Positions 12,745-62,967 are shown, counted from the first letter of the stretch. The stretch is 64,000 bases of DNA from a bacterium (GCA_965261595.1 CBDHDG010000006.1:1672799-1736798), one strand, 5' to 3'. Numbers and translations: made by a program. The notes: generated by a model not told the origin, from the sequence alone.

Positions 12745-13649
12745 GATTGCGGTGGGGATTTTGGGCTGGCGTGGGGGCTTCGATTGCCGTCCATGTCGGG
12801 TTCATGGTGATTGTGCCTCCGCCCGAGCCCCAGGCGGTGATGAGGACGCCGATGCACGTGGTCGAGCTTCGGAGGATGCGGATCCCGGTTCCGACCCCCC
12901 CCCCCCCCCCGAGCCCGCGGGAGCGTCCCGAACGGGAGCCGGTCGTCGGGCCGCCTCCTCCGCTCCCGCCTCCTCCGCCGGCCGCCTCGCCTCCCGTCGC
13001 GGCGCTGCGCCTGGAGGAGATGGTCCGGGCGGCCCGTCCGCCTGATTTCAAGGCCCCCCTTCCGATCCCGTCCGCCTTTGTGTTCGCCGACCGATTGGGG
13101 AAGACCCCGGTGGTCGCGCCGAAGGTTTTCAGTCACGCGAAATTGCCGCGTGGGACCCCGGGCGGATCGCCGCCGGTCGGCCGGTTCAAGATCCCGTCCG
13201 TCCGGTCCGGCGCGGCGGGGAGGCGGTCGGACGGGTTGCGAGCTCTTCGGAAGCGATTGATTCGGCAGGAGCTTCTCAAGGCTTCAGAGGCCGAGCCGGA
13301 GGAATTGGAGATCCGGGGCCCCGTCGCCGGGCGAGAATTGGTTTACCGGCCTCCGCCCCCCACCCCATTCCGCGGTGCGGAAGGCGAGATCAAGTTGAAA
13401 TTCTGGGTGCTTCCCGATGGGACCGTGGGGCGGATTGTTCTCCTGGTCCGGGGGGACTCGTCCCTCGAGACGACCGCCATCGGGAATCTCAAGCGATGGA
13501 AATTCAACACCCTCCCTCCCGGCGCCCGGGTTCCCGAGCAGTGGGGGACGATACGGTTCCGGTTCCTTTCCGGCGCGGCGATTTCGCCCATCGCCCCGGG
13601 GGTGCGCGTGCTGAAACCCAAGGTTCTCCGAGAGCTTCCCCTTCCCTGA
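12741..13649 (+). CDS. tonB: TonB family energy transducer
   Basis: GTG at 12741 overlaps the exbD stop (GTGA). N-terminal TM, Pro-rich spacer encoded partly by a C14 tract, C-terminal TonB domain (KLKFWVLPDGTVGRIVLL). Confidence 0.7.
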   Translation: MRLRWGFWAGVGASIAVHVGFMVIVPPPEPQAVMRTPMHVVELRRMRIPVPTPPPPPSPRERPEREPVVGPPPPLPPPPPAASPPVAALRLEEMVRAARPPDFKAPLPIPSAFVFADRLGKTPVVAPKVFSHAKLPRGTPGGSPPVGRFKIPSVRSGAAGRRSDGLRALRKRLIRQELLKASEAEPEELEIRGPVAGRELVYRPPPPTPFRGAEGEIKLKFWVLPDGTVGRIVLLVRGDSSLETTAIGNLKRWKFNTLPPGARVPEQWGTIRFRFLSGAAISPIAPGVRVLKPKVLRELPLP

Positions 13650-16804: not shown

Positions 16805-18395
16805 TCAATTTCCCGGAAATGAAAAGACCGGCTTGAGCGGTCTGGTTTTCAGACCGCCCCGCCGCGCCCTGGCGATCAGTCCGGGATAGCGGTTTCTCCG
16901 GATAAAAATCACGGCGTTTTCGGGAAGAGGACTCGCGTAAATCAGCGCGAAGTCGGTCCGCGCCTTCATGCGATCGAGCATGGGCCATTTCTTTCCCATC
17001 AAGACCACGTCCGTGGGATACCGGTCCAGGAGGTCGTTCCAGGAAATTCGCTCCGCGCCCGGCAGGAACGCCTTTCCGTAATGGAATGCCATATAGGCCT
17101 GTTCGGCCCCGGGCGGATAGACGTTCCGGTAGCGGCCGTCATAGGCGAGCAGGTTATGGGCGGGTTTACCGGCGGCCGAGTCGGGACCCAGGCGCCACAG
17201 GACGAACTGAGCCCAATTGAACCAGACCGCCAGGTTCCCGCGAATCCCGTTATCGCGGATGAATTGAACCGCCCGCATGGGGAAATGGGCGGTCTTCATC
17301 GGGATGCGCCAGGGGGTGTAGACGCCGTACAGGGCGCCCGCCGCCGTGACGCCGAGGATCAGGGCAAAGACGAGCGCCGTCTTCATGACCCGCTGGGCGC
17401 GTCGACCGGGCAGGTTGGGTGGGGGGAGGGGGAGATGAGAGAGAGGGGGGGAGTTGCCGCGCGTCCACCGGGCGCGAATCGCGCTTTCCAGATGCTTGGG
17501 AATGAACATCGCGGCGGCAATGCAGAAGAACACCGTATGCCGGATGTGGACAAGCCCGCCGATGACCAGCCCCGCCAGGAGAAGGACCTCGAAGGCGTCC
17601 CTTCGCCGGCGGGTGAAAATCAACGACCCGGCCGAGATGAGCAGAATCACCTTGAAGAAGGGGAAATCCACATCCACGTAGGGGAACCGGCCGGTGAAGA
17701 ACTTGAGCGGGACCCACTCGGCCATCACGATGGGGCGGGGGGTTGTCTGATCGAACCACAGCCAGCGGTAGAGCTCCCGTCCGTACGGGTTTGATCAGGG
17801 TGACCAGCGCGCTTGCCAGGAAGGCGGCGGCCGTCCAGACAAGCAACCGGCGGGTCGATTCCGCGAGGGCGGCGTCTTGCCGCGCGAACAGCAGACGCAA
17901 ACCCGTCACCCCGGTCAGCAGCCCGATGACGACGAGGCCGGCTAGGAACCCGCCGTGGGTGTTGGCCCACAGGAGCATCAAGGGGACCCAGGCCAAGGTC
18001 CACGTGGGGTTCAGGCTTCGAGTCAGGTGAGTCCGGGAGATCAGGGCAAGGAGCAGTGTGAAGAGGAAGAAGGTGAACAACTGCGGCCGAAAGGCCATCA
18101 CCGGGGCGATTCCGCCCCATGCGAGGGTGAACATGACGACGACCTCCAGCAGGTTGCGCGTCGTCGCCCGTCCCACCCGGAGGATGCAGGCGAGAAGCCC
18201 CGCCACCAGGAGCAAGCGGAAGAGCCAAAGGCCGAAGGCGCCCCAGTGCGTCCAGGCGAAGGCGATGAGAATCTGGCTGAGCCAAGCGTGGCGGACCCAC
18301 TCAAAAACGGGGTTGATCGGCTCATGGAACCGGAGGGTGTAGGACATAGGGGTCCGCCCACAAGAATTGACCGCTCTGGAGCGTGTATTGGCCAA
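16805..18395 (-). pseudogene. polytopic membrane protein (glycosyltransferase-like multi-TM N-terminal domain plus soluble C-terminal domain) split across two reading frames
   Basis: ORFs 17250..18395 and 16805..17728 are both protein-like and join near 17770-17790 (LIKP | YGRELYRW) with a +/-1 frame change. A further frame break near 18340 separates an upstream TM segment (FFLVCLLIGGCLALG). Confidence 0.5.
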
Positions 18396-18889
18396 AACGG
18401 ATGTGGCCCCAGAGGTCCGGGTCGGGTGAAGCGACCTGCATGCCCAGGGCGAGACAACCGCCGATGAGAAGGCAAACGAGGAAAAAGGAATTCAGGTCAA
18501 CGCGGTCGAACCGGGATATCCACTTTGCGGCGGCGGGGGGGGGGCGCGAAGAACGAGATGAATCAGACGGGCTCACGGGCGCGCGTGCCTTTCGAAGATA
18601 TCTCAACGGGGGCGGGCGCGACGTGCGCGGAACCCTCTCGGACCGCCGAGGGGCCGCCGCGGACTTCGATTCCTTCAGCGAAAATAACGATTGGGCGTCG
18701 GAGAAGGGCCGCGGGGCGAGGCGATGTCCGAAATCCCCGGAAACCCGGGAGCGCGGCAAGAATTCACCGTGTTCCTTACCGTTCCGTTCGGGATTCATAC
18801 TCCCGATGTCGGCGGTTGTCCCTGAGGATGTGAAGAATCAAGGCAATCGGAATTATGCCCTTGACAAAGTAGGCCACAAGGTCTATATT

Positions 18890-19060
18890 CTAGGGTATGG
18901 CTGATTCATCGTTCACTTCAGCGTCTTTCGACCTTTCGCCCACAATCTTGTCTACTTCCTTCATAACCCGTTTTCCGAATATCTTCTCCATAAAATCATG
19001 GCCCGAAAGTTCGAGGTCTTCCTTTTTCAGTTCGTCTTTCTCTTTGGGGGATTGACCCAT
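18890..19060 (-). CDS. small hypothetical protein inside the IS, divergent from the transposase
   Basis: 57-aa charged ORF (MGQSPKEKDELKKEDLEL...) abutting the transposase start. Weak support only. Confidence 0.2.
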   Translation of the reverse strand: MGQSPKEKDELKKEDLELSGHDFMEKIFGKRVMKEVDKIVGERSKDAEVNDESAIP

Positions 19061-19949
19061 GGACATGAACCTCGTTTCCTTGATGGACCGCTTCAACTGC
19101 GATAAAAAGTGCCGAAAGGCCCTGGAGCATATCCGGTGGCCCAATGGTGTCGCCTGCACCCGTTGCGGCGATATGGACGTTCTTCCTCTTCCCAAACACT
19201 GCCGATGGGAATGTAAGTCATGCGGCTACCAGTTCAGCGTCATGTCGGGGACCATCATGCACGATTCTCATCTTGCCCTTCGCAAGTGGTTCCTGGCGAT
19301 CTACCTGATGTGCGAGTCGAAGAAGGGGATTTCCGCCCTTCAGATGAAGAGAACGCTTGGGACAACCTACCGGACGGCCTGGCACCTGTGCCACCGAATC
19401 CGCGAGGCGATGGGCAATGATCCGTTTGAGGGGCCTACGCTTCTCGGAGTGGTAGAGGTCGATGAAACGCTTGTGGGAGGCAAGAAGAAGGGCAAGGGCC
19501 GTGCCTACAAGGGCAACAAGGTTTGGGTCGCAGGAGCCATCCAGCGAGGCGGCAAGGTCCGGGTCGAGCGTATCTCCGACGTGAAACGTCACACGCTCCA
19601 TGGATTCATTAGCCGCGCCGTTCGGGACGAAGCCGAGGCCATCTATACGGACGAATTGAAGTCCTACCTGGGAATTGCCGACAACAATACGCGCCATGAG
19701 ACGGTCAACCATTCAGCCGAACAATGGGTCATTGGCGAAGTTCACACCAACAGTATAGAAGGTGTTTGGAGCCTATTCAAGCGTTCCCTGATGGGTGCGT
19801 TCCACAAGATGAGCGCGAAGCACATGGACCGCTACCTCGAAGAGCTTGAATGGCGGTTCAACAACCGGAACAACCCGAATCTATTCCAAGATACCCTTGC
19901 CCGCATTATGGACACTAAGAATCTGACTTATCGGGAGTTGGTGGCTTAA
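19059..19949 (+). CDS. IS1595 family transposase (zinc-ribbon plus DDE domain)
   Basis: N-terminal CxxC...CxxC zinc ribbon (CTRCG...CKSCGY) and a DDE_Tnp_IS1595-like core (ISXO2-like), 296 aa. Confidence 0.9.
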   Translation: MDMNLVSLMDRFNCDKKCRKALEHIRWPNGVACTRCGDMDVLPLPKHCRWECKSCGYQFSVMSGTIMHDSHLALRKWFLAIYLMCESKKGISALQMKRTLGTTYRTAWHLCHRIREAMGNDPFEGPTLLGVVEVDETLVGGKKKGKGRAYKGNKVWVAGAIQRGGKVRVERISDVKRHTLHGFISRAVRDEAEAIYTDELKSYLGIADNNTRHETVNHSAEQWVIGEVHTNSIEGVWSLFKRSLMGAFHKMSAKHMDRYLEELEWRFNNRNNPNLFQDTLARIMDTKNLTYRELVA

Positions 19950-20020
19950 GTCTTCCACGGTTTCCCTCGTCATTAACAGACTCTGGTGGAAGTTGTATAT
20001 GCAAGAGGAATAATGGAACA

Positions 20021-20614
20021 TCACCAATTTTCTCTGCATACCTGCGCAAGGCCTTTATAGACACTTGTTGATTGTCTCCGGGGATCTTTTCCTGAACTCC
20101 TGCAAAAGTCTCCAGAAACCCTGGAATCCCCCCCCCAATTACTTGACAAATCTTTGACGATAATGGCATCCTTGAGCTGGCTTAACATAACCTTGATCCT
20201 TGGATCTTTTGTTGCCTGATGAGGATCTATGGAAAACCACAAACAAGCCGCCTGAGACAATGATAGATTTTTGTGTTTTTGGTATAATGAAACATCTACC
20301 TCTATGGGTTCTTCACCTGGAGCTACAGTATCTGTGTGGATGCACTCATCGATCTTCTTGTCTAAACGTTCCACCTCGAGACGAAAAGGCGCCATTAACA
20401 AGTTCCATAGGAATGTTGGAACGATAGCCACCAATATGAATATGATAGCGATCACAATATTATCCGTCATTTCTGAACTAGCCTTTTCTTCTTCTCCGAT
20501 ATAGCTGAGTAGCAAAATAAATATCGCAGGAACGAGAACCAACACAAGGACGGTTCCAAATGACAACCCAAAACTCTTCCACGTGTCAATACACGCTTTC
20601 TTAAAGATTTCCAT
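20021..20614 (-). CDS. passenger gene: hypothetical 2-TM membrane protein (about 38% GC)
   Basis: 197-aa ORF inside the IS between the transposase and the right IR. Two TM helices then a soluble domain. AT-rich codon usage foreign to the host. Confidence 0.5.
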   Translation of the reverse strand: MEIFKKACIDTWKSFGLSFGTVLVLVLVPAIFILLLSYIGEEEKASSEMTDNIVIAIIFILVAIVPTFLWNLLMAPFRLEVERLDKKIDECIHTDTVAPGEEPIEVDVSLYQKHKNLSLSQAACLWFSIDPHQATKDPRIKVMLSQLKDAIIVKDLSSNWGGDSRVSGDFCRSSGKDPRRQSTSVYKGLAQVCRENW

Positions 20615-21144
20615 GCAACAAAACTACACATGGGATCGGGCTTTGTCAAGGGCATAATTCCGAAGGCAATGGTCACCGCCAACAGCCAAAAGACCACCGT
20701 AGCTAATCCCACGTTTCATCCTCCATGATCAGGATATTCGGTTCAAGTCCGGAGCTTACGACGCTTGGTTTCCACGGCCGGGGTTCGATCCGGACCCCGG
20801 CGACGTTTCTCAGAGATCCTCTTCCCGCGCAACGACGCCCGAGGTCATGTTCCCGCTGATCATCTTATCAGGACTTTCGTTCTCACCGAGAGACAAGGGG
20901 GGATGGGCCGCTTCTCGACCGATCCTGGAACTCCTGACTTCCCAACTCACCGGATGATCAACAACGACATTCCTATATATTTGGAAGCCGCCCTGGCGCA
21001 AGTGATCTCTGGGAGTAGTCGAATATTAATGAATAACCAACCGGCTCGGTCGTGGGGACCATGGAGGGGGGCGCGTCGTTCTCGATCCTGTTTGCGAGAG
21101 GGCGGAAATCGTCCCCGGCGGAAGGCGTCAGCCGCCGGTCGTCT

Positions 21145-23463
21145 TTATGATCTGGGGCCCCCGAGCGCCTCGACGACCTTTTCCGGGGTGATGGGCAGGC
21201 TCCGAATCCGCGCGCCCAAAGCGTGGGCGACCGCGTTGGCCACGGCTGCGGCCGTTGGAACGAGGGCCGGCTCGCCCAGTCCTTTCGCGCCGTAGGGGCC
21301 CTCCAGTCCGTGGCGGCCGGCTTCCGCGTTCTCGATGAACCGGACGCGGACATCCGGCGCGTCCACGATGGTGGGAATGCGGTAATCGTAGAAATTCGGG
21401 TTCATCACCTGCCCGCCGTCAAAGACCATCTCCTCCGACACCGCCCAGCCCAACCCCTGGACGACGCCGCCCTCGACCTGGCCCTCGGCGGTGAGGGGAT
21501 TGATGATCCGGCCCGAGTCGTGGACGGCCGTTACGCGCTCGATCACCACCCGGCCGGTCTCGATGTCCACGGCCACCTCGGCGACGTGCGCGGCGAAGGC
21601 GTAGGCGAGCGTCGCGTGGCCGTAGCGGGAGGCGTCCGGGATGACCACCTCGGGAGGCGTGACAAACGCGCCTTCGCCGATAATGGGTTTTCCGCCCGCG
21701 GCCGTGACCATATCGCGCGTGGCGTCGGAAAAGCCCATCCCCCGCCCGGGCGCGCCCTCGACGCGGATCCGGCCGTCCCCGGTTTCGAGATCCTCCGGCC
21801 GGCACTCCAGGCGCTCGGCCGCGAAGGCGAGGATTTTCTCACGGGCGTCCCGGGCGGCCCTGGCCACCGCGTGGCCGCCCACCGTCGTCACCCGGCTCGC
21901 GTACGCCCCCAGGCAGGCCGGCGTCACGTCGGTGTCCACGCCGGAGACCCGGACGTCCTCCAGGCCGACGCCGAGCTCTTCCGCGGTGATCTGGGCGAGC
22001 ACCGTGCGGGCGCCCTGGCCGATGTCCGTTTCGCCCGTTAGGAGGAAGGCGCGGCCCTCTTCGTCGACCTGGACGACGGCGGCGCCTCCGTCGAAGTCCC
22101 CATAGGCCCCCCGGAACCCGGAGCCGTGGATGCAGCAGGCCATTCCGACGCCCCGGAGGATGGCCTTTCCACGCGGCGAAGAAGCGGGAGGCTCAAAACC
22201 CCCCGCGCGTTTTCGGTCCCAATCCGTCTCGGATTTCGCTTTCTCGACGCATTCCCGGATTTCGGCCGAGCCGATTCGAAAGCCGTGCATGGTCACGTCG
22301 CCGGGACGGACGAAGTTCTTCATCCGGAGCGCGGCCGGGTCCATGCCCAGCTCTTCCGCGAGGATATCGACGCCGGACTCCAGGGCGAACGCCCCCTGCG
22401 GGTTGCCGAATCCCCGGTATCCCCCGGTCGAGAGCTTGTTTGTATAGACGAGCTGATATTGGTTTTTGACGTTGGGGATCCGGTAGAGGTTGTCCATCCG
22501 GTAAGAGGAGATGCCCGTGATGGCCGGCGCCTCGTTGCTGTACGCCCCGTTGTCGGCGATGACATCGGAGGATTTCGCGACGAGACTCCCTTCAGAATCG
22601 GCCGCCAGTCTCAGGTGGATGGTCATGGGGACCCGAGGGTGGGTGGTCAGAAACTCGTCGGTGCGGGTGTTGTCCAGCCGGACGGGTCGCCCGGCCTTCT
22701 TCGAGAGAAGCGCGGCGATCAGGTGAAGGCGGACCATTTTCTTGGAGCCGAATCCGCCGCCCACGAAAGAGTGGATCATCCGGATGTCGGACGCCTTCAT
22801 CCCGAGGATTTCGGCGTAATGGCGGCGCGCGATCCAGGGGTCCTGGATGCCGACGTGTAGCGTCAGGCGGCCGTTGGGGGCGAAGTCGGCGACGGCCCCC
22901 ATGGGCTCCATGTAGCACTGGTGGGCGGAGGACGTCTCGAACGTGGCCTCGACCTTGTGGGCGGCGCGCTCATAGGCCCGGTCGAACTTGCCGCGCTCCA
23001 TCTCCCCCCGCATCGCGATGTTTCCGGGCTTGTCCTCGTGGAGGAGGGGCGCCCCTTCGGCCAGGGCCTCCCCGGTCGTTCCGACTACCGGCAGGGGATC
23101 GTACTCGACATGAATTTCCTCCAGGGCCTCTTCGGCGGCGTCGGGATCGGTCGCGGCGACGGCGGCGACCTCGTCCCCCGCGTACCGGACCTTGTCGACG
23201 GCCAGGACGGTCTCGTCGTGGATCATGTGGCCCCATTTGACGTCCGGGCAATCGGCGGCGGTCAGGACGGCGCGAACGCCCTTGAGGTTTTTGGCCCGGG
23301 AGGCGTCGATGGACAGGACCCGGGCGTGGGGAAGGGGGCTTCTGAGGACCTTCGCCCAGAGCATCCCGGGGACCGAGACATCCGAGGCGTACTGGCCCCC
23401 GCCCGAGGATTTCTCCCAGGATTCCACGGAGGGAACCCGCTGGCCGATGACGCGATATTCCAT
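21145..23463 (-). CDS. xanthine dehydrogenase family protein, molybdopterin-binding (large) subunit
   Basis: 773 aa with aldehyde oxidase/XDH a/b hammerhead and MoCo-binding domain motifs (GGGFGSK, GQGARTVLAQI, HDSGRIINP). Start at MEYRVIGQ (23463). Confidence 0.85.
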   Translation of the reverse strand: MEYRVIGQRVPSVESWEKSSGGGQYASDVSVPGMLWAKVLRSPLPHARVLSIDASRAKNLKGVRAVLTAADCPDVKWGHMIHDETVLAVDKVRYAGDEVAAVAATDPDAAEEALEEIHVEYDPLPVVGTTGEALAEGAPLLHEDKPGNIAMRGEMERGKFDRAYERAAHKVEATFETSSAHQCYMEPMGAVADFAPNGRLTLHVGIQDPWIARRHYAEILGMKASDIRMIHSFVGGGFGSKKMVRLHLIAALLSKKAGRPVRLDNTRTDEFLTTHPRVPMTIHLRLAADSEGSLVAKSSDVIADNGAYSNEAPAITGISSYRMDNLYRIPNVKNQYQLVYTNKLSTGGYRGFGNPQGAFALESGVDILAEELGMDPAALRMKNFVRPGDVTMHGFRIGSAEIRECVEKAKSETDWDRKRAGGFEPPASSPRGKAILRGVGMACCIHGSGFRGAYGDFDGGAAVVQVDEEGRAFLLTGETDIGQGARTVLAQITAEELGVGLEDVRVSGVDTDVTPACLGAYASRVTTVGGHAVARAARDAREKILAFAAERLECRPEDLETGDGRIRVEGAPGRGMGFSDATRDMVTAAGGKPIIGEGAFVTPPEVVIPDASRYGHATLAYAFAAHVAEVAVDIETGRVVIERVTAVHDSGRIINPLTAEGQVEGGVVQGLGWAVSEEMVFDGGQVMNPNFYDYRIPTIVDAPDVRVRFIENAEAGRHGLEGPYGAKGLGEPALVPTAAAVANAVAHALGARIRSLPITPEKVVEALGGPRS

Positions 23464-24143
23464 TTTCCATTCCCAGGATTCGGGCAAAGCCGAACCCGCC
23501 GATGCCCTCGTATTGCCGTTAGGCGCTTGCCCCACTTCTCAAGGGCCGCATTCCGCCGCGCCATTCAGATTATCACGGTTCAGGTTGCGCGGCGGGATAT
23601 AGAGGTTGTGAATCGATCACGCGGGAACACCCGGGTCCGTCGCTGTCTATGGCGGCCGTTGGCGGTGTCAAGCCGGATCATTCCGCCAGCATGGACTGGA
23701 TATTTCCGGCCGCTCGGCGGGATCGACCCTTCAAGAAATCCGGTGGTTCAATCATTGTTCGGACAATATGGATTTGTTCTAAGTAGAACCCCCGTGGCAC
23801 TATTTGTGCAAGCTTAAAAAGATGGGAACCATACATGCGCTCAATAGCGGTTCACGGTTTTGACCCTCCCGGATAAGTCAGAGGGGGGATGGGTCCGCGT
23901 GAAATCGTATTACCCCGCTACGCTTTGGGGGAGCCGCCCGCCTATCGCCCCGGGTGTTGTCGGAGGGGCGGAGATCCAGGGTCCCGAAGGTCGGGTTGAT
24001 CTTGGGGTTCCGGTGCGCCTCGGCGGCGCATTTCACGGTTTCCGTAAACAGAAACAAATCAAGGGGGGGACGCAAGAAAACGGGCGCCCCCGCCCTTGGG
24101 TTTCGTTGGACACTCGATCGAGTCATCAAGGCAAACCAATCGG

Positions 24144-29230: not shown

Positions 29231-30316
29231 ATGAGTGGAAAGATCCGCGTTTTGATCGTTGAGGATTCAGCTTTGGAGCGTTTCCTCCTCTGTGAGATTC
29301 TCTCCCAAGAGCCCGACATCGAGGTGGTCGATGTCGCGCCGGACGCCGATCGCGCCCGAAATAAAATGCGAATTCATAAGCCCGACGTTCTGACGCTGGA
29401 CGTGAAGATGCCGGGCGAGGACGGCATTGCCTTCCTCACCGGGCTTATGTCCACGGACCCTCTTCCGGTCATCATGGTCAGCGCGTTCACCCTGGCGGGA
29501 GCGAAGACCACGCTGTCCGCCCTCGAGAAAGGCGCGGTGGATTTCGTCGCGAAACCCGATGGCAGCAAAGATGAAGATCTTGAAGTGTTCCGGCGGGAGC
29601 TCATCCGGAAAGTGCGCGCCGCCGCCACGGCCCGTATGGGGCGGCATCCCCGGCCGGTCCCGACCCACGCGCCGGCGGAGCTGCCGGAAACACCGGGATT
29701 CATCGTTGCGATTGGAACCTCGATGGGAGGTCCGGAAGCGTTGAGGAGTCTTCTTCCGAGACTTCCGGCCAATTTTCCGGCGATTCTGCTCGTCCAGCAT
29801 ATGCCGGAGTACTTCACCCAGGCCATGGCCGAGAGCCTGGATAAGATCTGCGCCATCCACGTGAAGGAGGCGGAACAGGGCAAACCCGTCCTACCGGGTC
29901 AGGCGCTCATTGCTCCGGGAAATTGCCACATGGAGTTGCGGCGCCTGGGAACCCGCTATTATGTGGAGATTCACAAAAACCCCCGGGTGCGCGGGTTCCG
30001 GCCTTCTGTGGATGTGTTGTTCGAGTCTGTGGCCCAATACGCGGATTTGGACACCATAGGGGTCATCCTGACGGGGATGGGCTCGGATGGGGCGAAGGGC
30101 ATCTCCCGGACGAAGGCCGCCGGCGCGTACACCATTGCCCAGGACGAGGCAAGCTCTGTCATCTTCGGCATGCCCAAACAGGCCATCGCGACGGGGGCCG
30201 TCGATATCGTGCTTCCTCTCGAGGGAATCCCCGGCCATCTCATTAAAGCGATGCAAAGGGCAGGGGCGCCCTTGAAGAAGCCGGCCGGATCGCCGTTGGT
30301 CGCAGCGAGAACCTAG
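29231..30316 (+). CDS. cheB: protein-glutamate methylesterase CheB (REC plus methylesterase)
   Basis: REC domain (IRVLIVEDSALER...LTLDVKMPGEDG) and CheB catalytic domain (IVAIGTSMGGPEAL, HMPE..., GMGSDG). ATG at 29231. Confidence 0.85.
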   Translation: MSGKIRVLIVEDSALERFLLCEILSQEPDIEVVDVAPDADRARNKMRIHKPDVLTLDVKMPGEDGIAFLTGLMSTDPLPVIMVSAFTLAGAKTTLSALEKGAVDFVAKPDGSKDEDLEVFRRELIRKVRAAATARMGRHPRPVPTHAPAELPETPGFIVAIGTSMGGPEALRSLLPRLPANFPAILLVQHMPEYFTQAMAESLDKICAIHVKEAEQGKPVLPGQALIAPGNCHMELRRLGTRYYVEIHKNPRVRGFRPSVDVLFESVAQYADLDTIGVILTGMGSDGAKGISRTKAAGAYTIAQDEASSVIFGMPKQAIATGAVDIVLPLEGIPGHLIKAMQRAGAPLKKPAGSPLVAART

Positions 30317-30702
30317 TGCTTATTTGCGAAAATTAGCATCTTCTCAAAGGCGGCAAATTGCCAATAAAATTCAGTCAAAATTGCCCAAAAATTAATACGC
30401 GAACTTTTGCAACCAAGCACTAGTGTCGCGTCCCGGAAATAAATTCACGATTTCCGAACCTCCTCAAAGTAGGGCGCCACCGGCGGTTTGCCCGCCAGCG
30501 CCTCATTTTTCGGGAAATCCAAAGGGCATCCTGTCACCTGATATTTATTGAAAGGATTTCTGAGACGCGACACTAGGCCAAGTCATTCCCCCTTCTTTCG
30601 GACAGGTTGTTGTCCCACACCGAGTTGACAAGATGAAGAAGGCTTGGCTTTTCTCTTTGTGAGAAACGCAGCCTCACCCGCCGTGTCGCTTGGACCCGGC
30701 AC

Positions 30703-30981
30703 GGGCTCCGCGCGCGCGCGGGGGGGGGGCCACCGACGCCAGCACAGAGAGCACTGATCGAGGGGCTCCGCGCGCGCGCGGGGGGGGGGCCTCTAAGCCC
30801 CCCAGCCCGTCTATCATGCGGCCGGCTCCGCGCGCGCGGGGGGGGGACGATCGCGGCCTTTCTTTTCTCAAAGGTTCCAATGGCTCCCCCCGCGCGCGCG
30901 GGGCGCGCGCGCGGGGGGAGCCCTGGCCAAATCTCTATCTCAGGTGACATAATGGGCTCCGCGCGCGCGGGGGGGGGCCTC
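30703..30981. CRISPR. CRISPR-like orphan array: about 5 units of a 26-29 bp GC-only repeat (GGGCTCCGCGCGCGCGCGGGGGGGGGGCC) with about 32-bp unique spacers
   Basis: Repeat copies start at about 30703, 30763, 30823 and 30955, plus a palindromic double unit at 30882-30922. Period about 60 bp. Spacers 31-35 bp with no mutual similarity. AT-rich leader-like region upstream (30317-30480). No cas genes in the window. Confidence 0.4.
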
Positions 30982-31162
30982 ACGGAACTGACCGGAAGCC
31001 GCGCGGAGCGCAGCGCGAGGCCTCGTGAAGGGGCATGTGTAGAGTCGATTAAATTGTTGTATGCTTGGATGATGTGACGCCACGCTGGAAACTGCTTCTC
31101 CTCATGGGGGGAAGCCGTTTCCCGATGTCGGGAAACCCAGGGGCCCTGCTGAAAGGGGGTAG

Positions 31163-46062: not shown

Positions 46063-46311
46063 TTCTCCTCAGCGATAGAGAGCCCCCGCAGGCCGAACAC
46101 ACCAAACCCGCGCCATGATTGGCTCGGGCGCCATCCGGCCGGGGCGGCGAATCAAGATCCGGTATTGTCGGAGTGATCCGGGCAGGGGGGGGGGCGGTCG
46201 GTTACCCGCCTATTAAAGGTGGGCTGAGGAATTATAGCACGAGCCAGGGGGTTTCAACGCGGCGGTTTCGACCCGAATTCAGAGCGGCGTCCCGCCTGTT
46301 GCGGGCGGGCG

Positions 46312-55867: not shown

Positions 55868-58800
55868 TTACTCCAGGCGCACGGTCCGATCGCCCAGGAG
55901 GTCCTCCACGCGGTCGAGCATCTCGCCCGAGGGGTCCACGCGGAATTCGGGGAACCGGCGCGATTCCCGCCGCCGGCCGAAGTCGAACTGGAGGGACAGC
56001 GGGAACGGACCCCGGTGGTCCTCCAGGATCTCTTTCAGGTCGATCATCCGGGCGCGGACCAGCTCCCGGCTCTTCCCGGCCACCGGAATGCGAATCAAGA
56101 CGCCCCCCCCCCCCCCCCCGCCCGCCGACAGGGCGGTGATCTTCTCGGCCTTGATGGTGACGCTGCTTTCTCCCTGCTCGGCCGTCCCGGCGAGCAGGAT
56201 CGGCTCCTCTCCCTCCAGGAGCGAGGCGGAATCGCGGTAGCAGTCGGGAAACACAAGCACCTCCGCGAACCCCTCCAGGTCCTCCAGGTTGAAGCGGGCC
56301 ATGAGGTCGCCCCGCCGCGTGCTTTGGACCTTCAACCCGGCCACCAGTCCGGCCATCCGGACCTTCTGGTTTCCGTTGCCCTCCCCCAGACCCGCCGTCG
56401 AGACGGTCGTCAAAAGTTTCAGCTCCCGCCGGAACCGCGACAAGGGGTGGCCCGTGATGAAGAAGCCGAGCGCCTCCTTCTCCTGATGCAGCCGCTCTTT
56501 TTCGTCCCATTCCGGCGCCGGGGGCAGGGGGGGGGCGGCGTCGGCCCCGCCGGCCGCCTTCCCCGGGAACAACTGAGACTGGCCGGTGATCCGATCCTTT
56601 TGGTCCTGCGCCGCCCTTTCCAGGGCCGGATCCAGGACGGCCAGAAGCTGGGCCCGGTGGCCTTCGGTGGAGTCGAACGCGCCGCATTTGATCAGGCTTT
56701 CGACGACCCGGCGGTTGACGTTCCGCAGGTCGATTCGCCGGCAGAACGAGAACAGGGAGACGAACGGACCTTCCTCGCCGCGCGCCCGGAGGATTTCGTC
56801 CACGGCGCCGCCGCCGACGTTCTTGACGGCCGCGAGACCGAACCGGATGCCGGCCGGGTGGACGGTGAACCGCTTGCCGCTTTCGTTGATGTCGGGCGGC
56901 AGGACCGGGATGTCCATCTCCCGGCATTCGGCGATGTTCTTCATCACCTTGTCGGTGTTGTCCATGTCGCAGGTGAGCAGGGCGGCCATGAAGGGGCGCG
57001 GGCGATGGGCCTTGAGGTAGGCCGTCCAGTAGGCCACCAGGCCGTAGGCGGCGCTGTGAGACTTGTTGAACCCGTAACCGGCGAAATGGGCCATCAGCTC
57101 GAAGATGCGTTTCGCCTTGTCCGGCGGGACCCCGCGCTCTCCGCATCCTTTCAGGAAGTTCTCCTCCTGGCGCGCCATCTCCTCGGGCTTCTTCTTGCCC
57201 ATGGCCCGGCGGAGCAGATCGGACTCTCCCAGGCTGAACCCCGCCAGGGCGGCGGCAATTTGCATGACCTGCTCCTGGTAGAGGATGATCCCGTAGGTCT
57301 CCTTCAGGATCTCCTCCAGCGCGGGCAGCTCGTACTGGATGGGCGCCTTCCCTTGCTTGCGCCGGATGTAGTCGTCCACCATCCCGCTTCCCAGGGGACC
57401 CGGCCGGTACAGGGCGACGGCGGCGATGATGTCCTCGAAGGTCGAGGGTTTCATCTTTCGGAGGACCTCGCGCATCCCGCGGCTCTCGCACTGGAAGACG
57501 CCGGCCGTGCGTCCGTCGCCGAAGATCCGGAAGGTCTCCGCGTCGTCGAGCGGAACCCGCTCGATGTCGAACTCCGGCGCCCCTTCGGTCTCCCCGTCCC
57601 CGGCGCGGATCATCTCCTCGGCCTTGCGGATCACCGTAAGCGTCCGCAGTCCGAGGAAATCCATCTTGAGCAGTCCCAGGGACTCCACGTCGGTCATATC
57701 GAACTGGGTGACGGTTTCGCCGTTGGCGCCCCGGGCCAGGGGGACGAGCTCCATCAGGGGCCGGGGGGCGATGACGATTCCGGCGGCGTGGGTGCTGGCG
57801 TGGCGGGAGAGCCCCTCCAGGGTGCGGGCGGTGTCGATGAGACTCTTCACCTTCGGGTCGTTCTCTTGCAGCTCCCGCAGACGGGGCTCCTCCTTCAGGG
57901 CGTCGTCCAGCGAGATGTTGAGCCGGCCCGGGACGAACTTGGCGATCCGGTCCACCTCCCCGTACGGCATGTCCATCGCCCGCCCCACGTCCCGGATCAC
58001 ACCCTTGGCCATCATGCTTCCGAACGTGATGATCTGGGCGACGTTCTCGCGGCTGTATTTCTCGTTGACGTACTCGATCACCTCGTCCCGGCGTTCCATG
58101 CAGAAGTCGATGTCGATGTCCGGCATGGAGATGCGCTCGGGATTCAAAAACCGCTCGAAGAGCAGGCGGTACCGGATGGGGTCCAGGCCGGTGATTCCGG
58201 TGCTGTAGGCCACCAGGCTCCCCGCCGCCGAGCCCCGGCCGGGTCCGACCGGGATGTGCTTCTTCCGGGCGTGGTCGATGAAGTCCCAGACGATGAGGAA
58301 GTAGCCGGAGAACCCCATCTTCCGGATCATCTCGAGCTCGAATTCCAGCCGCTCGTCGTACTCCGCCCGGGAGACCCCCGGCGCGGGGCCCGCCGCCTCC
58401 AGGCGGCGGGCGAGGCCGTCCCGGGCCAGCCGGGCGACAAAGTCGTCCAGGCTGCTTCCGTCCGACGGCTCGTACTGCGGGAGGTGGCTCCCGCCGAACT
58501 CGATCTCGAGGTTGCAGCGCTCGGCCACGTCCAGGGTGTTCCGAAGGGCTTCCGGAAACTCCGGGAACACGGCCGACATCTCCTGGGGGCTCTTCACATA
58601 GAGCTGATCGGTTTGAAAGCGCCAACGGTTCGGGTCGTTGATCGTCTTGCCGGTCTGGATGCAGAGCAGGATCTCGTGGGCGAAGGCGTCGCCCGCCTCC
58701 AGGTAGTGGCAGTCGTTCGTGGCGATGACGGGGAGGTCCAGCTTCTTGGCCAGCTCGACAAGACCCGGCAGGACTTTCTTCTGCTCGGCCAGACCGTGGT

Positions 58801-62121: not shown

Positions 62122-62967
62122 CTACGCTCCCCCGCCCACTTCGTGATAGAGGCGTCCCACGCCCTCGTCGAAGAGGATCTCGTACCGCTCGTGGAACGCG
62201 TCCGGGACCGACTTCCACCGCCGGTCGTAGCGCACATCGGCCCGTGTCTCCGCCTCGGTCATCCCTTTCCCGACGCACCCGCGCACCCGGTCCATCAACT
62301 CGATGATGTCCGCCCGCAGGGGCGAAACGGCACCCTTGTCGCAAAGTTCTCCGTGGCCCGGAACGATGGCCGCCACGTCCATCCCTTCGATGAAGTCCAG
62401 GCACGCCAGCCAGTCCCGCCCGACGCCCGAGTGGAGCAGGGGCGGCCAGTCCACGACCACGTTGTCGCCAGGCAGGAGGACTCCGGCGTCGGGGACGTAT
62501 ACGAGGGTCTGGCCCCCGGTGTGGCCCGGCTTGTGGATGAGGCGGATCTCCCGGCCCCCCGGCCGCAGGGTCATCCCTTCGTCGTACGTTACGTCCTGGA
62601 GGGTGACCTCGTATCCCTCCAGGAGGGGCAGGCCCTCCTGGTCCATCTTCTCCATCAGGCCCCGCCAAAAATCGAGCGTTCCGACGCCCTCGGGGGTGTC
62701 CCGCCGGGTGAGGGCGTGGGAGACCTTGAGGGCGCCATGGAAGAACCAGTTGCCGCCGGCGTGGTCGCCGTGGTGCTCGGTGTTGATGAGGACCTTCACC
62801 TCCCCCCCCCCCCTCCCAGCGCCGACACCGCTTCCTTCCACGCCACCGCGTGGCTGGGGCACATGGGCGGGTCGATCAGGACCAGGCCGTCGTCCGTGAC
62901 GATGCAGCTGTTGTTGCAGCCCCGGTAGCCGGTTTCCGCCCAGACGCCGGGCGCGATTTCCTTCATC
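62122..62967 (-). pseudogene. MBL-fold metallo-hydrolase, frameshifted inside a homopolymer
   Basis: N-terminal part (MKEIAPGVW...) and C-terminal part (…LINTEHHGDHAGG…) are in different frames. The junction lies in the C13/G13 tract at 62806-62818. Confidence 0.55.

What the first reader, a model, noticed from the sequence alone, without database searches (positions are those of the whole stretch)
18840..20670. Complete low-GC IS1595-family element with perfect 22-bp TIRs, 8-bp TSD and cargo genes
Inverted repeats CGGAATTATGCCCTTGACAAAG (18848-18869) and CTTTGTCAAGGGCATAATTCCG (20641-20662) are exact reverse complements. The flanking AAGGCAAT is duplicated directly (18840-18847 and 20663-20670), which suggests a recent simple insertion. 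IS1595 elements generate 8-bp TSDs. Besides the transposase the element carries about 700 bp of cargo with a 197-aa 2-TM protein at about 38% GC, against about 67% for the host. That implies recent horizontal acquisition from a low-GC donor, and an unknown passenger function.
Basis: seen in the sequence. Interest (0 to 1): 0.6.

Follow-up and report, generated by a model that had tools for sequence, protein, structure and literature searches.

The report
IS1595 transposon with frameshifted passenger gene
This is a real, freshly inserted 1.8-kb jumping gene of the known IS1595 family. It carries one extra gene for an uncharacterised membrane protein, which in this copy is broken by a one-base slip, so it is an ordinary kind of element with some instructive details.

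Summary
Perfect 22-bp inverted repeats (18848-18869 / 20641-20662) are flanked by an exact 8-bp duplication, AAGGCAAT. They enclose a 1815-bp element whose transposase has the IS1595 zinc ribbon, DDE domain and every catalytic residue. It is a "transporter IS" (tIS), a known IS1595 variant that carries passenger genes.

- The "197-aa" passenger ORF is frameshifted at a C9 run (20128-20136). Intact relatives are 233-236 aa and end at 19915, overlapping the transposase 3' end.
- GC is 49% for the element (transposase 55%, passenger 42%) against 63.5% for the window, not 38% against 67%. Being GC-poorer than the flanks holds for 63 of 66 related elements, so no particular low-GC donor is implied.
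- A third conserved gene is present: a 56-aa protein at 18890-19060 on the minus strand.
- Both repeats carry inward promoter-like sites, each with an ATG about 49 nt from the element tip.

The passenger belongs to a rare unnamed family, about 100 clusters among 1.8 billion representatives. It has two TM helices and a cytoplasmic domain that weakly resembles Xis/MerR-type winged helices. A copy with 97% identical left module carries an unrelated passenger cassette. Passenger function remains unknown.

The parts
18840..18847 (.). Left copy of the 8-bp target-site duplication, AAGGCAAT
   Evidence: Read directly. It is identical to 20663-20670.
18848..18869 (+). Left terminal inverted repeat (IRL), CGGAATTATGCCCTTGACAAAG. 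It contains TTGACA at 18861-18866.
   Evidence: The same IR type, consensus GGTRATTATGCACTTGACRCAA, is seen in 66 related elements.
18861..18889 (+). Inward-facing sigma-70-like promoter: TTGACA, 17 nt, TATATT. An ATG follows 7 nt later, at 18897.
   Evidence: Matches 11 of 12 consensus positions. A -10-like TAnnnT is present at the matching position in 66/66 left ends, and an ATG or GTG lies at element position 49 in 40/66. Function is inferred, not shown.
18890..19060 (-). Conserved small ORF, 56 aa: MGQSPKEKDELKKEDLELSGHDFMEKIFGKRVMKEVDKIVGERSKDAEVNDESAIP. It is divergent from the transposase gene and lies inside the transposase leader.
   Evidence: tblastn finds it upstream of the transposase in most of the 80 related loci. 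The motif E.IFGKR..KE.D is kept where the plus-strand ORF is broken or in another frame. Independent gene callers call a 54-56-aa gene there in L001, L083 and L086-L089. No Pfam, NCBIfam, PADLOC or PHROG hit.
18897..19055 (+). Plus-strand 52-codon ORF starting at the conserved ATG just after the -10 site and stopping 3 nt before the ATG at 19059. Possibly a leaderless upstream ORF, or simply the antisense shadow of the small ORF.
   Evidence: Its amino-acid sequence and frame are not conserved across relatives, so its coding status is doubtful.
19059..19949 (+). IS1595-family DDE transposase. It is 296 aa from ATG 19059, or more likely 294 aa from ATG 19065.
   Evidence: Pfam PF12762 at 5.3e-37 and PF12760 at 4e-9. 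NCBIfam NF033547 at 209 bits. D135, D198, E234, K241 and C33/C36/C52/C55 are conserved in 60 unique relatives. Relatives are called as 294 aa.
19915..20614 (-). Passenger gene, frameshifted here. As written it gives a 197-aa ORF at 20021-20614. With one C removed from the run it gives 232 aa ending at 19915, which overlaps the transposase 3' end (19915-19949) on the opposite strand.
   Evidence: ORFs 20021-20614 and 19915-20169. The corrected translation is 54% identical to P0002 and 95% identical over its full length to the intact 233-aa P0137. The family has 106 clusters and no annotation.
20128..20136 (.). C9 homopolymer (G9 on the coding strand), the site of the +1 frameshift in the passenger gene
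   Evidence: The sister element in L001 has C8 and is in frame. P0137 reads NWGRGISG across the site.
20621..20649 (-). Inward-facing promoter-like site at the right end: TTGACA (20649-20644), 17 nt, TAGTTT (20626-20621). The passenger ATG follows 6 nt later, at 20614-20612, which would make the mRNA leaderless.
   Evidence: Read. It falls below the scanner threshold, with a 3/6 match at -10. The geometry is conserved: ATG at element position 49 in 46/66 right ends and a -10-like TAnnnT in 61/66. Function is inferred.
20641..20662 (-). Right terminal inverted repeat (IRR), an exact reverse complement of IRL
20663..20670 (.). Right copy of the 8-bp target-site duplication, AAGGCAAT

Best explanation
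The region is a 1815-bp transporter insertion sequence (tIS) of the IS1595 family, sitting in an intergenic stretch of a high-GC chromosome.

Shown:
- It has perfect 22-bp terminal inverted repeats and an 8-bp target duplication.
- Its zinc-ribbon plus DDE(K) transposase keeps every conserved catalytic residue.
- Close relatives have inserted at many different sites, each with its own 8-bp duplication.

Inferred:
- The transposase binds the two IRs and moves the element into AT-rich 8-bp targets. Staggered cuts are repaired to give the duplication.
- Each IR holds a -35 hexamer (TTGACA) facing inward, with a -10-like box 17 nt further in and an ATG 6-7 nt after that. Transcription therefore probably starts at or next to that ATG at both ends.
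- The left transcript runs through the antisense of a conserved 56-aa gene into the transposase gene.
- The right transcript is a leaderless mRNA for the passenger gene. It converges on the transposase gene and overlaps its last 35 nt.

The passenger:
- It encodes a membrane-anchored protein with an N-terminal amphipathic helix, two TM helices and the juxtamembrane motif FLWNL..AP.R.
- Its cytoplasmic domain of about 110 aa carries the motifs AACLW..PH and LRRYA..VP.FL and weakly resembles Xis/MerR-type winged helix-turn-helix domains.
- It is not needed for transposition. It is one of many interchangeable right-end cassettes in this IS clade.
- In this copy it is interrupted by a +1 frameshift in a G9 run, so it is either inactive or mis-assembled.
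- Its biological role is unknown. My best guess, at low confidence, is a DNA- or protein-binding accessory function that benefits the element or host, such as exclusion or defence-related. A transposition function seems less likely.

The confidence of 0.85 applies to the identity and anatomy of the element (IS1595-family tIS with a frameshifted passenger). The promoter and leaderless-mRNA model stands at about 0.5, and any specific passenger function at 0.2 or less.
For: Ends and duplication.

Transposase identity and integrity:
- Pfam; NCBIfam NF033547, 209 bits against a cut-off of 75.
- D135, D198, E234 and K241 are invariant in 60 unique relatives, and the four Zn cysteines are conserved in at least 59 of them.

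Family definition: 8-bp TSD, Zn finger plus DDE_Tnp_IS1595 (PMC8101967). A tIS is an IS with passenger genes, so far restricted to the IS1595 and IS66 families (bioRxiv 10.1101/2021.05.26.445724; PMC3129680).

Activity of the clade:
- 80 related loci in MAGs.
- 66 elements with both ends found, 38 of them with 8-9-bp duplications, lengths 1355-4963 bp.
- A 93%-identical transposase sits in three copies, each with a different 8-bp TSD.
- TSDs are 40% GC against about 60% for the flanks.

Promoter geometry.

Passenger frameshift.

Passenger dispensable and exchangeable:
- The 1355-1372-bp elements lack a long right-end ORF yet have TSDs and several copies.
- L086 shares 97.2% identity over the first 1103 nt and identical IRs, but its cargo is unrelated.

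Passenger structure:
- AlphaFold models with pLDDT 83.9 and 85.1.
- TM segments.

Insertion site: intergenic, with no long ORF restored at the reconstructed empty site. The neighbouring genes are chromosomal, a Mo-hydroxylase and PAS kinases.
Against: - No expression data exist. The right-end -10 (TAGTTT) is weak and was not called by the scanner.
- Only one copy lies in the window, and neither an empty site nor other copies were found in JGI metagenomes. Activity in this genome is therefore not shown.
- The sister copies L001 and L086 lack a TSD.
- No family library recognises the passenger, so "DNA-binding" is a lead, not a result.
- The frameshift may be an assembly error.
- The ISfinder comparison could not be run.
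Confidence: 0.85

Rival explanations
1. The passenger frameshift is a sequencing or assembly artefact, a homopolymer miscall at G9. The element in the organism is then fully intact and encodes the 232-aa protein.
For: - The shift is exactly one base in a 9-nt homopolymer.
- The sister element has 8 bases and is in frame.
- The downstream reading frame is perfectly preserved, with 95% identity to P0137 right to the stop. That argues against old pseudogenisation.
- The neighbouring gene (16805-18395, minus strand) also looks split by a 1-nt indel.
- Related records have contig names typical of long-read metagenome assemblies, for example ctg17326_32x_rc. That reading of the names is my inference.
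Against: - No reads are available.
- Slipped-strand mutation at G8/G9 is also a natural event.
- The public protein record P0001 carries the same 197-aa product, but it derives from the same assembly, so it is not independent.
Confidence: 0.45
2. The frameshift is real. The passenger is a recently inactivated pseudogene, or a gene switched on and off by slippage of the G8/G9 tract (phase variation).
For: - G8 in L001 and G9 here show that the tract length differs between copies.
- The window holds many long G/C tracts: C16, C17, C12 and several G10.
Against: - The tract is not conserved in the family. P0137 reads NWGRGISG, and most homologues have no glycine run at this position.
- A phase-variable design is therefore not a family feature.
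- No population data are available.
Confidence: 0.4
3. The right-end gene is not a passenger. It is an integral regulator of the IS, for example a membrane-tethered DNA-binding protein acting on the ends, or a source of antisense RNA against the transposase mRNA.
For: - Its start sits at a fixed place, ATG at position 49 from the tip in 46/66 elements, under a promoter embedded in IRR.
- It converges on the transposase 3' end and overlaps it.
- The domain fold weakly resembles Xis/MerR DNA-binding domains.
- Homologues outside intact ISs still carry a decayed IRR-like promoter.
Against: - Elements of 1355-1372 bp without a long right-end ORF have TSDs and multiple copies.
- Right-end proteins fall into many unrelated sequence groups.
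- A 97%-identical left module carries an unrelated cassette.
- A specific protein function in transposition would not tolerate such replacement. Antisense transcription alone could still matter.
Confidence: 0.15
4. The passenger is a defence, exclusion or addiction cargo that gives the host or the element a selective benefit.
For: - A homologue in L045/L047 lies in the same tIS, immediately upstream of an N6_N4 DNA methylase-HNH fusion whose start overlaps its stop.
- Homologue P0005 is followed on the same strand by a 95-aa ORF and a 1128-aa type ISP restriction-modification enzyme, and sits next to HigB/HTH.
- P0114 lies near PIN and ResIII genes.
- Other cargoes in the clade include methylase-HNH fusions, and by my own reading of the sequences HNH-like, trypsin-like protease and MqsA-like proteins, which were not scanned.
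Against: - No PADLOC model hits the passenger family.
- The association rests on a handful of loci.
- In the window and in L001 the gene stands alone.
- Mobile DNA tends to co-localise with defence genes anyway.
Confidence: 0.2
5. One reading: the low GC marks a recent horizontal arrival from a low-GC donor organism.
For: - The element is 49% GC against 63.5% for the window, and the passenger is 42% with GC3 at 42.5%.
- The IRs and TSD are perfect.
- The same IS clade occurs in MAGs labelled as seven or more different major bacterial lineages, so horizontal spread is real.
Against: - 63 of 66 related elements are GC-poorer than their flanks, whatever the host.
- The transposase has GC3 of 70%, and its GC correlates with host GC at r = 0.61.
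- All hosts found are 50-68% GC. No low-GC host of this clade was seen.
- The element is a mosaic of a 55% module and a 42% module, so a single donor is not indicated.
Confidence: 0.1

Closest known systems
IS1595-family transporter IS (tIS), most likely the ISNwi1 group with passenger genes as listed in ISfinder (group assignment from memory)
   Same: - Zn-ribbon plus DDE_Tnp_IS1595 transposase.
- DDE with K at +7 and E-x3-R downstream.
- 8-bp TSD and terminal IRs.
- Passenger gene(s) between the transposase and IRR.
- As I recall the ISfinder table, the ISNwi1 group has ends of the form ggnnatTAT and the signature DDEK+ER4. The IRs here (CGGAATTAT, clade consensus GGTRATTAT) fit that form.
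   Different: - The nearest annotated transposases in plasmids are at most 42% identical.
- The closest relatives named by a source are called only "IS1595 family transposase".
- IS1595 members are described as having a single transposase gene (PMC8101967). This clade has a conserved extra 56-aa divergent gene and a fixed-position right-end gene.
- ISfinder itself could not be searched, so neither identity with a named IS nor the group assignment was tested.
Sister elements found here: L001 (ENA ERZ28669063 ctg59586), L086 (ERZ25071132 ctg777485) and L087-L089 (ERZ26167216)
   Same: - L001 has the same three genes, about 85% nt identity over 1.58 kb, and a passenger 54% identical.
- L086 has identical 22-bp IRs, and its first 1103 nt are 97.2% identical.
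- L087-89 have a transposase 93% identical and an 8-bp TSD at three different sites.
   Different: - L001's IR differs at 2 positions in both arms. It has C8, so it is in frame, and it has no TSD.
- L086 carries an unrelated 1.06-kb cargo with a 154-aa right-end ORF and has no TSD.
- L087-89 carry 204-aa and 103-aa ORFs instead.
Xis / MerR-type winged helix-turn-helix domains (for the passenger's C-terminal domain only)
   Different: - There is no sequence-profile match to PDB, Pfam or PHROGs.
- The domain is about 110 aa with a second strand-helix unit, and it is tethered to two TM helices, unlike soluble Xis or MerR proteins.

Membership tests
IS1595 family (insertion sequence) | Transposase with a C-terminal DDE_Tnp_IS1595 catalytic domain | tested here: met
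   PF12762 at E 5.3e-37, residues 128-268. NCBIfam NF033547 at 209 bits against a cut-off of 75. D135, D198, E234 and K241 are invariant in 60 relatives.
IS1595 family (insertion sequence) | N-terminal zinc-ribbon (Zn_Tnp_IS1595), present in all groups except IS1016 | tested here: met
   PF12760 at E 4e-9, residues 15-58. C33-x2-C36 and C52-x2-C55 are conserved. The feature is taken from PMC8101967.
IS1595 family (insertion sequence) | 8-bp target-site duplication | tested here: met
   AAGGCAAT lies on both sides. 38 of 66 relatives have 8-9-bp duplications, and three copies of the 93% relative have distinct 8-bp TSDs.
IS1595 family (insertion sequence) | Terminal inverted repeats | tested here: met
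   22/22 complementary, unique in the window.
IS1595 family (insertion sequence) | Single transposase gene as the only gene | tested here: not met
   There are two further ORFs inside the IRs: a conserved 56-aa gene and the passenger gene. This places the element in the tIS variant rather than outside the family.
tIS (transporter IS) | IS-like structure (one transposase, IRs, TSD) that also contains passenger gene(s) unrelated to transposition | tested here: met
   The passenger is present. It is dispensable, since 1355-bp relatives lack it, and replaceable, as L086 shows.
ISNwi1 group of IS1595 (ISfinder subgroup) | Ends ggnnatTAT, signature DDEK + E-x3-R, closest transposase relatives within the group | not testable with these tools
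   The ends CGGAATTAT / GGTRATTAT and D, D, E234, K241, E262-x3-R266 fit my recollection of the ISfinder table. No ISfinder sequences or table could be consulted.
Named ISfinder element (same IS) | At least 95% aa / 90% nt identity to a registered IS (ISfinder naming threshold recalled from memory) | not testable with these tools
   Only indirect evidence. The best annotated plasmid hits are at most 42% identical. Sources name close relatives only generically.
Known anti-phage defence proteins (PADLOC) | Match of the passenger to a defence-system model | tested here: not met
   0 families for the corrected passenger, P0002, P0005 or the L045 homologue.
Xis/MerR-like winged-helix DNA-binding domain (passenger C-terminal domain) | Fold match with significant score and/or profile match | tested here: inconclusive
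   [not shown]

The most novel reading that the evidence does not exclude
The window copy would be one member of a large, undescribed IS1595 clade. The clade has more than 6,600 transposase clusters at E<=1e-60 and occurs in MAGs labelled Acidobacteriota, Longimicrobiales, Dehalococcoidia, Binatia, Bryobacterales, Gammaproteobacteria and Trueperaceae, at least some of them from sponge microbiomes.

The clade would have a fixed three-part design:
- A constant left module: IRL with promoter, a 56-aa conserved protein and the transposase.
- A right end that works as a cassette slot: IRR supplies a promoter and a leaderless start codon 49 nt from the tip.
- In that slot, a hypervariable, modular set of mostly membrane-anchored proteins is exchanged between otherwise near-identical elements.

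That would make these elements a dedicated shuttle and expression platform for a diversifying class of small membrane proteins, possibly involved in exclusion, defence or host interaction, rather than ISs that picked up passengers by accident.
Probability: 0.3. Interest if true: 0.6.

Novelty: new member of a known kind. Interest (0 to 1): 0.35.

Why it matters
For the window, the result is mostly housekeeping. This is a mobile element that should be annotated as an IS1595-family tIS. It has three genes, one of them frameshifted, and it interrupts no gene.

The wider interest lies in the relatives:
- The same transposase backbone carries unrelated right-end cassettes.
- Each cassette starts at the same distance from the tip, under a promoter built into the inverted repeat.
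- Most cassettes encode unannotated membrane-anchored proteins.

If that pattern holds, it gives a concrete, testable example of how the simplest transposons act as gene-delivery and expression vehicles across phyla in dense symbiotic communities. It also defines two protein families with no current annotation, the passenger family and the 56-aa protein.

Tried and rejected
- **Exact-protein look-ups:** the window transposase, P0001 and P0137 are not on record, so the source genome and its copy number could not be examined.
- **Empty-site search:** a 28-nt junction gave no match in JGI metagenomes.
- **IRL-plus-flank search:** a 22-mer gave no match there either.
- **Family libraries:** Pfam, NCBIfam, PADLOC and PHROGs gave nothing above noise for the passenger, the small ORF and several other right-end ORFs.
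- **PDB sequence profile search** of the passenger domain gave nothing.
- **Fold searches:** Foldseek against PDB and BFVD found nothing significant. AFDB50 was unavailable.
- **RNA scans:** Rfam over the element found no RNA family. No tRNA lies in the window, so this is not a tRNA-targeted island.
- **Gene disruption by the IS:** rejected. The reconstructed empty site restores only a 37-codon ORF.
- **The plus-strand 52-codon ORF as the real left-end gene:** rejected as a protein. Its sequence and frame are not conserved, while the minus-strand protein is.
- **ISfinder subgroup table:** attempts to find it in the literature failed.
- **Homopolymer indel scan for further frameshifts:** too noisy in this high-GC sequence to be informative.
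- **Catalytic-residue check:** the first run used an off-by-one frame and was discarded. The corrected run is.
Full report
**1. Observation**

The sequence reads AAGGCAAT|CGGAATTATGCCCTTGACAAAG at 18840-18869 and CTTTGTCAAGGGCATAATTCCG|AAGGCAAT at 20641-20670. The repeat finder gives one outstanding inverted pair, 23 nt and 100% complementary. The extra pair is the T and A at the inner edges of the duplication, and only the 22 + 8 reading gives an exact direct repeat. The 22-mer has no other match in the window even with three mismatches, and none is expected by chance. The element is 1815 bp.

**2. Transposase**

The ORF at 19059-19949 (+) matches Pfam DDE_Tnp_IS1595 (5e-37) and Zn_ribbon_IS1595 (4e-9). 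It also matches NCBIfam NF033547, "IS1595 family transposase", at 209 bits against a cut-off of 75.

In an alignment with 59 other unique relatives, D135, D198, E234, K241 and E262 are invariant. The four zinc cysteines and R266 are conserved in at least 59 of the 60.

Relatives are called as 294 aa, and tblastn matches mostly begin at residue 3. The real start is therefore probably the ATG at 19065.

The published family features are 8-bp TSDs, an N-terminal zinc finger and a C-terminal DDE domain (PMC8101967). All are met.

**3. Passenger gene**

The 197-aa ORF (20021-20614, minus strand) had only two hits by word-indexed search among 5.8 billion proteins: itself, and P0002 at 236 aa. The C-terminus of P0002 aligns not with the tail of the 197-aa ORF but with a second minus-strand ORF, 19915-20169.

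The two frames meet at a C9 run, 20128-20136. The sister element has C8. Removing one base gives a 232-aa protein. That protein is 54% identical to P0002 and 95% identical over its full length to P0137, an intact 233-aa member of the same 90% cluster.

The window copy therefore carries a +1 frameshift. I cannot tell whether it is real or an assembly error. The neighbouring gene also appears split by a 1-nt indel near 17785.

The intact gene would end at 19915. It would overlap the last 35 nt of the transposase gene on the other strand.

**4. What the passenger is**

- **Family size:** an exhaustive HMMER search of 1.84 billion representatives found 106 clusters at E<=1e-3, of which 58 were at E<=1e-10. 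A profile search of the larger collection found 53 proteins, none with a Pfam domain or an informative source name; the one that has a name is labelled "hypothetical protein".
- **Conserved features:** two TM helices, a juxtamembrane FLWNLWLAPYR motif, and a C-terminal domain with invariant L..AACLW..P and LRRYA..VP.FL.
- **Models:** AlphaFold gives confident models, with pLDDT 83.9 for the full length and 85.1 for the domain. They show an amphipathic helix, a TM hairpin with a long stalk, and then a small alpha/beta domain.
- **Topology:** from the charge distribution I infer that both termini are cytoplasmic.
- **Library searches:** Pfam, NCBIfam, PADLOC, PHROGs and PDB profiles gave nothing.
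- **Conclusion:** a membrane-tethered domain possibly of the Xis/MerR winged-helix type, with function unknown.

**5. Relatives of the element**

A scan of 185,579 species-representative genomes returned 80 loci with transposases 66-84% identical. All were in MAGs labelled Dehalococcoidia, Longimicrobiales, Acidobacteriota/Terriglobia/Bryobacterales, Binatia, Gammaproteobacteria, Trueperaceae, Gemmatimonadetes or Deltaproteobacteria. Two bins belong to the SB06xx series, which is listed among sponge-associated genomes in PMC7883664. A sponge origin for the rest is my inference.

I could place both ends in 66 elements, counting the window and L001.
- The IR consensus is GGTRATTATGCACTTGACRCAA.
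- 38 of them have 8-9-bp duplications.
- Lengths run from 1355 to 4963 bp.
- The TSDs are 40% GC.

The protein collection holds more than 6,600 transposases at E<=1e-60. The closest are 98% and 93% identical. The 93% relative is present in three copies of a 2079-bp element, each with its own 8-bp TSD. The clade is therefore active.

**6. Architecture shared by the clade**

- **Symmetrical ends.** At both ends, TTGAC(A) lies at positions 13-18 of the IR. A TAnnnT box lies about 17 nt further in, and an ATG lies at position 49. The ATG is at position 49 in 46 of 66 right ends, and an ATG or GTG is there in 40 of 66 left ends. In the window the left site scores 11 of 12. The right -10 is weak. 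With only 6-7 nt between the -10 and the ATG there is no room for a ribosome-binding site, so I infer leaderless mRNAs.
- **A small minus-strand ORF between IRL and the transposase.** It encodes a conserved protein of the form M(A)Q.PKKKRKLP...E.IFGKR..KE.D. tblastn finds it in most loci. The motif persists where the plus-strand ORF is broken or lies in a different frame. Gene callers report it independently as 54-56 aa. In the window it is 18890-19060, and its ATG lies 4 nt from the transposase ATG at 19065.
- **A right-end minus-strand ORF in nearly every element longer than about 1.7 kb.** It begins about 48 nt from the tip. 41 of 44 such proteins have at least one predicted TM segment. Under a strict statistic they fall into groups of 12, 9 and 3 plus many singletons. 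The links come from shared N-terminal or C-terminal modules. The window type is shared only with L001 and L045/L047.
- **Varied cargo in longer elements.** Examples are N6_N4 methylase-HNH fusions (Pfam-confirmed only for L045). From my reading of the ORFs there are also proteases, zinc-ribbon proteins and nested ISs.

**7. The passenger is dispensable and exchangeable**

Elements of 1355-1372 bp with no long right-end ORF have TSDs and several copies.

L086 has IRs identical to the window's, and its first 1103 nt are 97.2% identical, right up to the transposase stop. The next 1.06 kb is unrelated and encodes a different 154-aa right-end protein.

Against L001, identity is 86-96% across the small ORF and transposase. 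It decays to about 50% in the 5' part of the passenger gene.

Homologues of the passenger found away from an intact IS still have a decayed IRR-like promoter in front. Some lie beside restriction-modification or toxin-antitoxin genes. That is suggestive of a defence context but rests on few cases.

**8. Base composition**

| Region | GC |
|---|---|
| Window | 63.5% |
| Element | 49.1% |
| Transposase | 55.1% (GC3 70%) |
| Passenger | 42.4% (GC3 42.5%) |

Across the clade, 63 of 66 elements are GC-poorer than their flanks. The means are 54.9% for elements against 60.4% for flanks, and 52.3% for the right-end gene. Transposase GC correlates with flank GC at r = 0.61. The GC deficit is therefore a clade property. 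It does not point to a low-GC donor.

**9. Insertion site**

The element lies between a molybdenum hydroxylase gene (21145-23535, minus strand) and a membrane-protein gene (below 18475, minus strand). Joining the flanks restores only a 37-codon ORF. No empty site or further copy was found in JGI metagenomes.

**10. Comparison with what is known**

ISs that carry passenger genes are called transporter ISs. They are described as so far restricted to the IS1595 and IS66 families (citing Siguier et al. 2009). The element is a new member of that kind.

From memory of the ISfinder table, the ends and the DDEK + E-x3-R signature fit the ISNwi1 group. I could not test this. Annotated plasmid transposases are at most 42% identical. 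Sources name the close relatives only generically.

The conserved small gene, the symmetrical promoter and leaderless-start design, and the cassette-like exchange of membrane-protein genes are, as far as I know, not described for this family. They rest on sequence comparison only.

**Verdict**

- The element is an ordinary kind of mobile DNA, a new member of a known kind.
- Interest is modest at 0.35.
- The most novel reading, the cassette-slot model, has a probability of about 0.3.

Noticed in passing
window 30700-30985: Four or five copies of a G/C-only repeat of about 28 nt (GGGCTCCGCGCGCGCGCGGGGGGGGGGCC, one of them a palindromic variant) lie about 60 nt apart, after an AT-rich stretch at 30300-30660. 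The upstream genes are PAS histidine kinases and CheB, not cas genes, so this looks like REP-like palindromes rather than CRISPR.
   Followed up: partly
window 12895-12910, 56103-56119, 62802-62813, 18535-18544, 46185-46194: Very long poly-C/poly-G tracts (C16, C17, C12, G10, G10), far beyond chance for 63.5% GC. They may be real contingency-like tracts or assembly artefacts.
   Followed up: no
window 16805-18395 (minus strand), junction near 17785: The membrane-protein gene next to the IS is split into two overlapping ORFs, 17250-18395 and 16805-17728. Removing one base in ATCAAACCCG would join them as ...LINPYGRELYRWLWFDQTTPRPIVMAEW... This is either a pseudogene or an indel error.
   Followed up: partly
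L086:2784-4966: The IRs are identical to the window's and the left 1103 nt are 97.2% identical, but the cargo is completely different (a 154-aa right-end ORF) and there is no TSD. The right terminal 38 nt match the window's left end.
   Followed up: yes
L045:3797-6800 and L047; L008-L011: tIS relatives carry an N6_N4 DNA methylase fused to an HNH nuclease (398 aa, Pfam-confirmed in L045, and a similar 473-aa ORF in L008-L011, not scanned) between the transposase and the right-end membrane-protein gene. In L045 the membrane-protein gene is a homologue of the window passenger, and its stop overlaps the methylase start.
   Followed up: partly
L008-L011, L019, L020, L022, L023, L025-L027, L029, L030 (one Acidobacteriota MAG, isolate 63da1ed5-...): A single MAG holds at least 13 loci of two different tIS types from this clade, a 3130-bp type and a 2115-bp type. 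Some lack TSDs and two have an IS256-like element nested inside. This indicates a large expansion in one genome.
   Followed up: partly
L085:4001-8453: A passenger-family homologue (P0005) outside any IS is followed on the same strand by a 95-aa ORF and a 1128-aa type ISP restriction-modification enzyme, and is preceded by HigB/HTH. Its upstream 50 nt keep the TTGAC, 17 nt, -10, ATG geometry of the IS right end.
   Followed up: partly
window 18890-19060 (minus strand) and equivalent positions in L001-L089: A 54-56-aa lysine/glutamate-rich protein with a PKKKRKLP-like N-terminus and an E.IFGKR..KE.D motif is conserved across the IS clade. It matches no family library. Its start codon lies 4 nt from the transposase start on the other strand, so each gene's promoter must lie inside or beyond the other gene.
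   Followed up: partly
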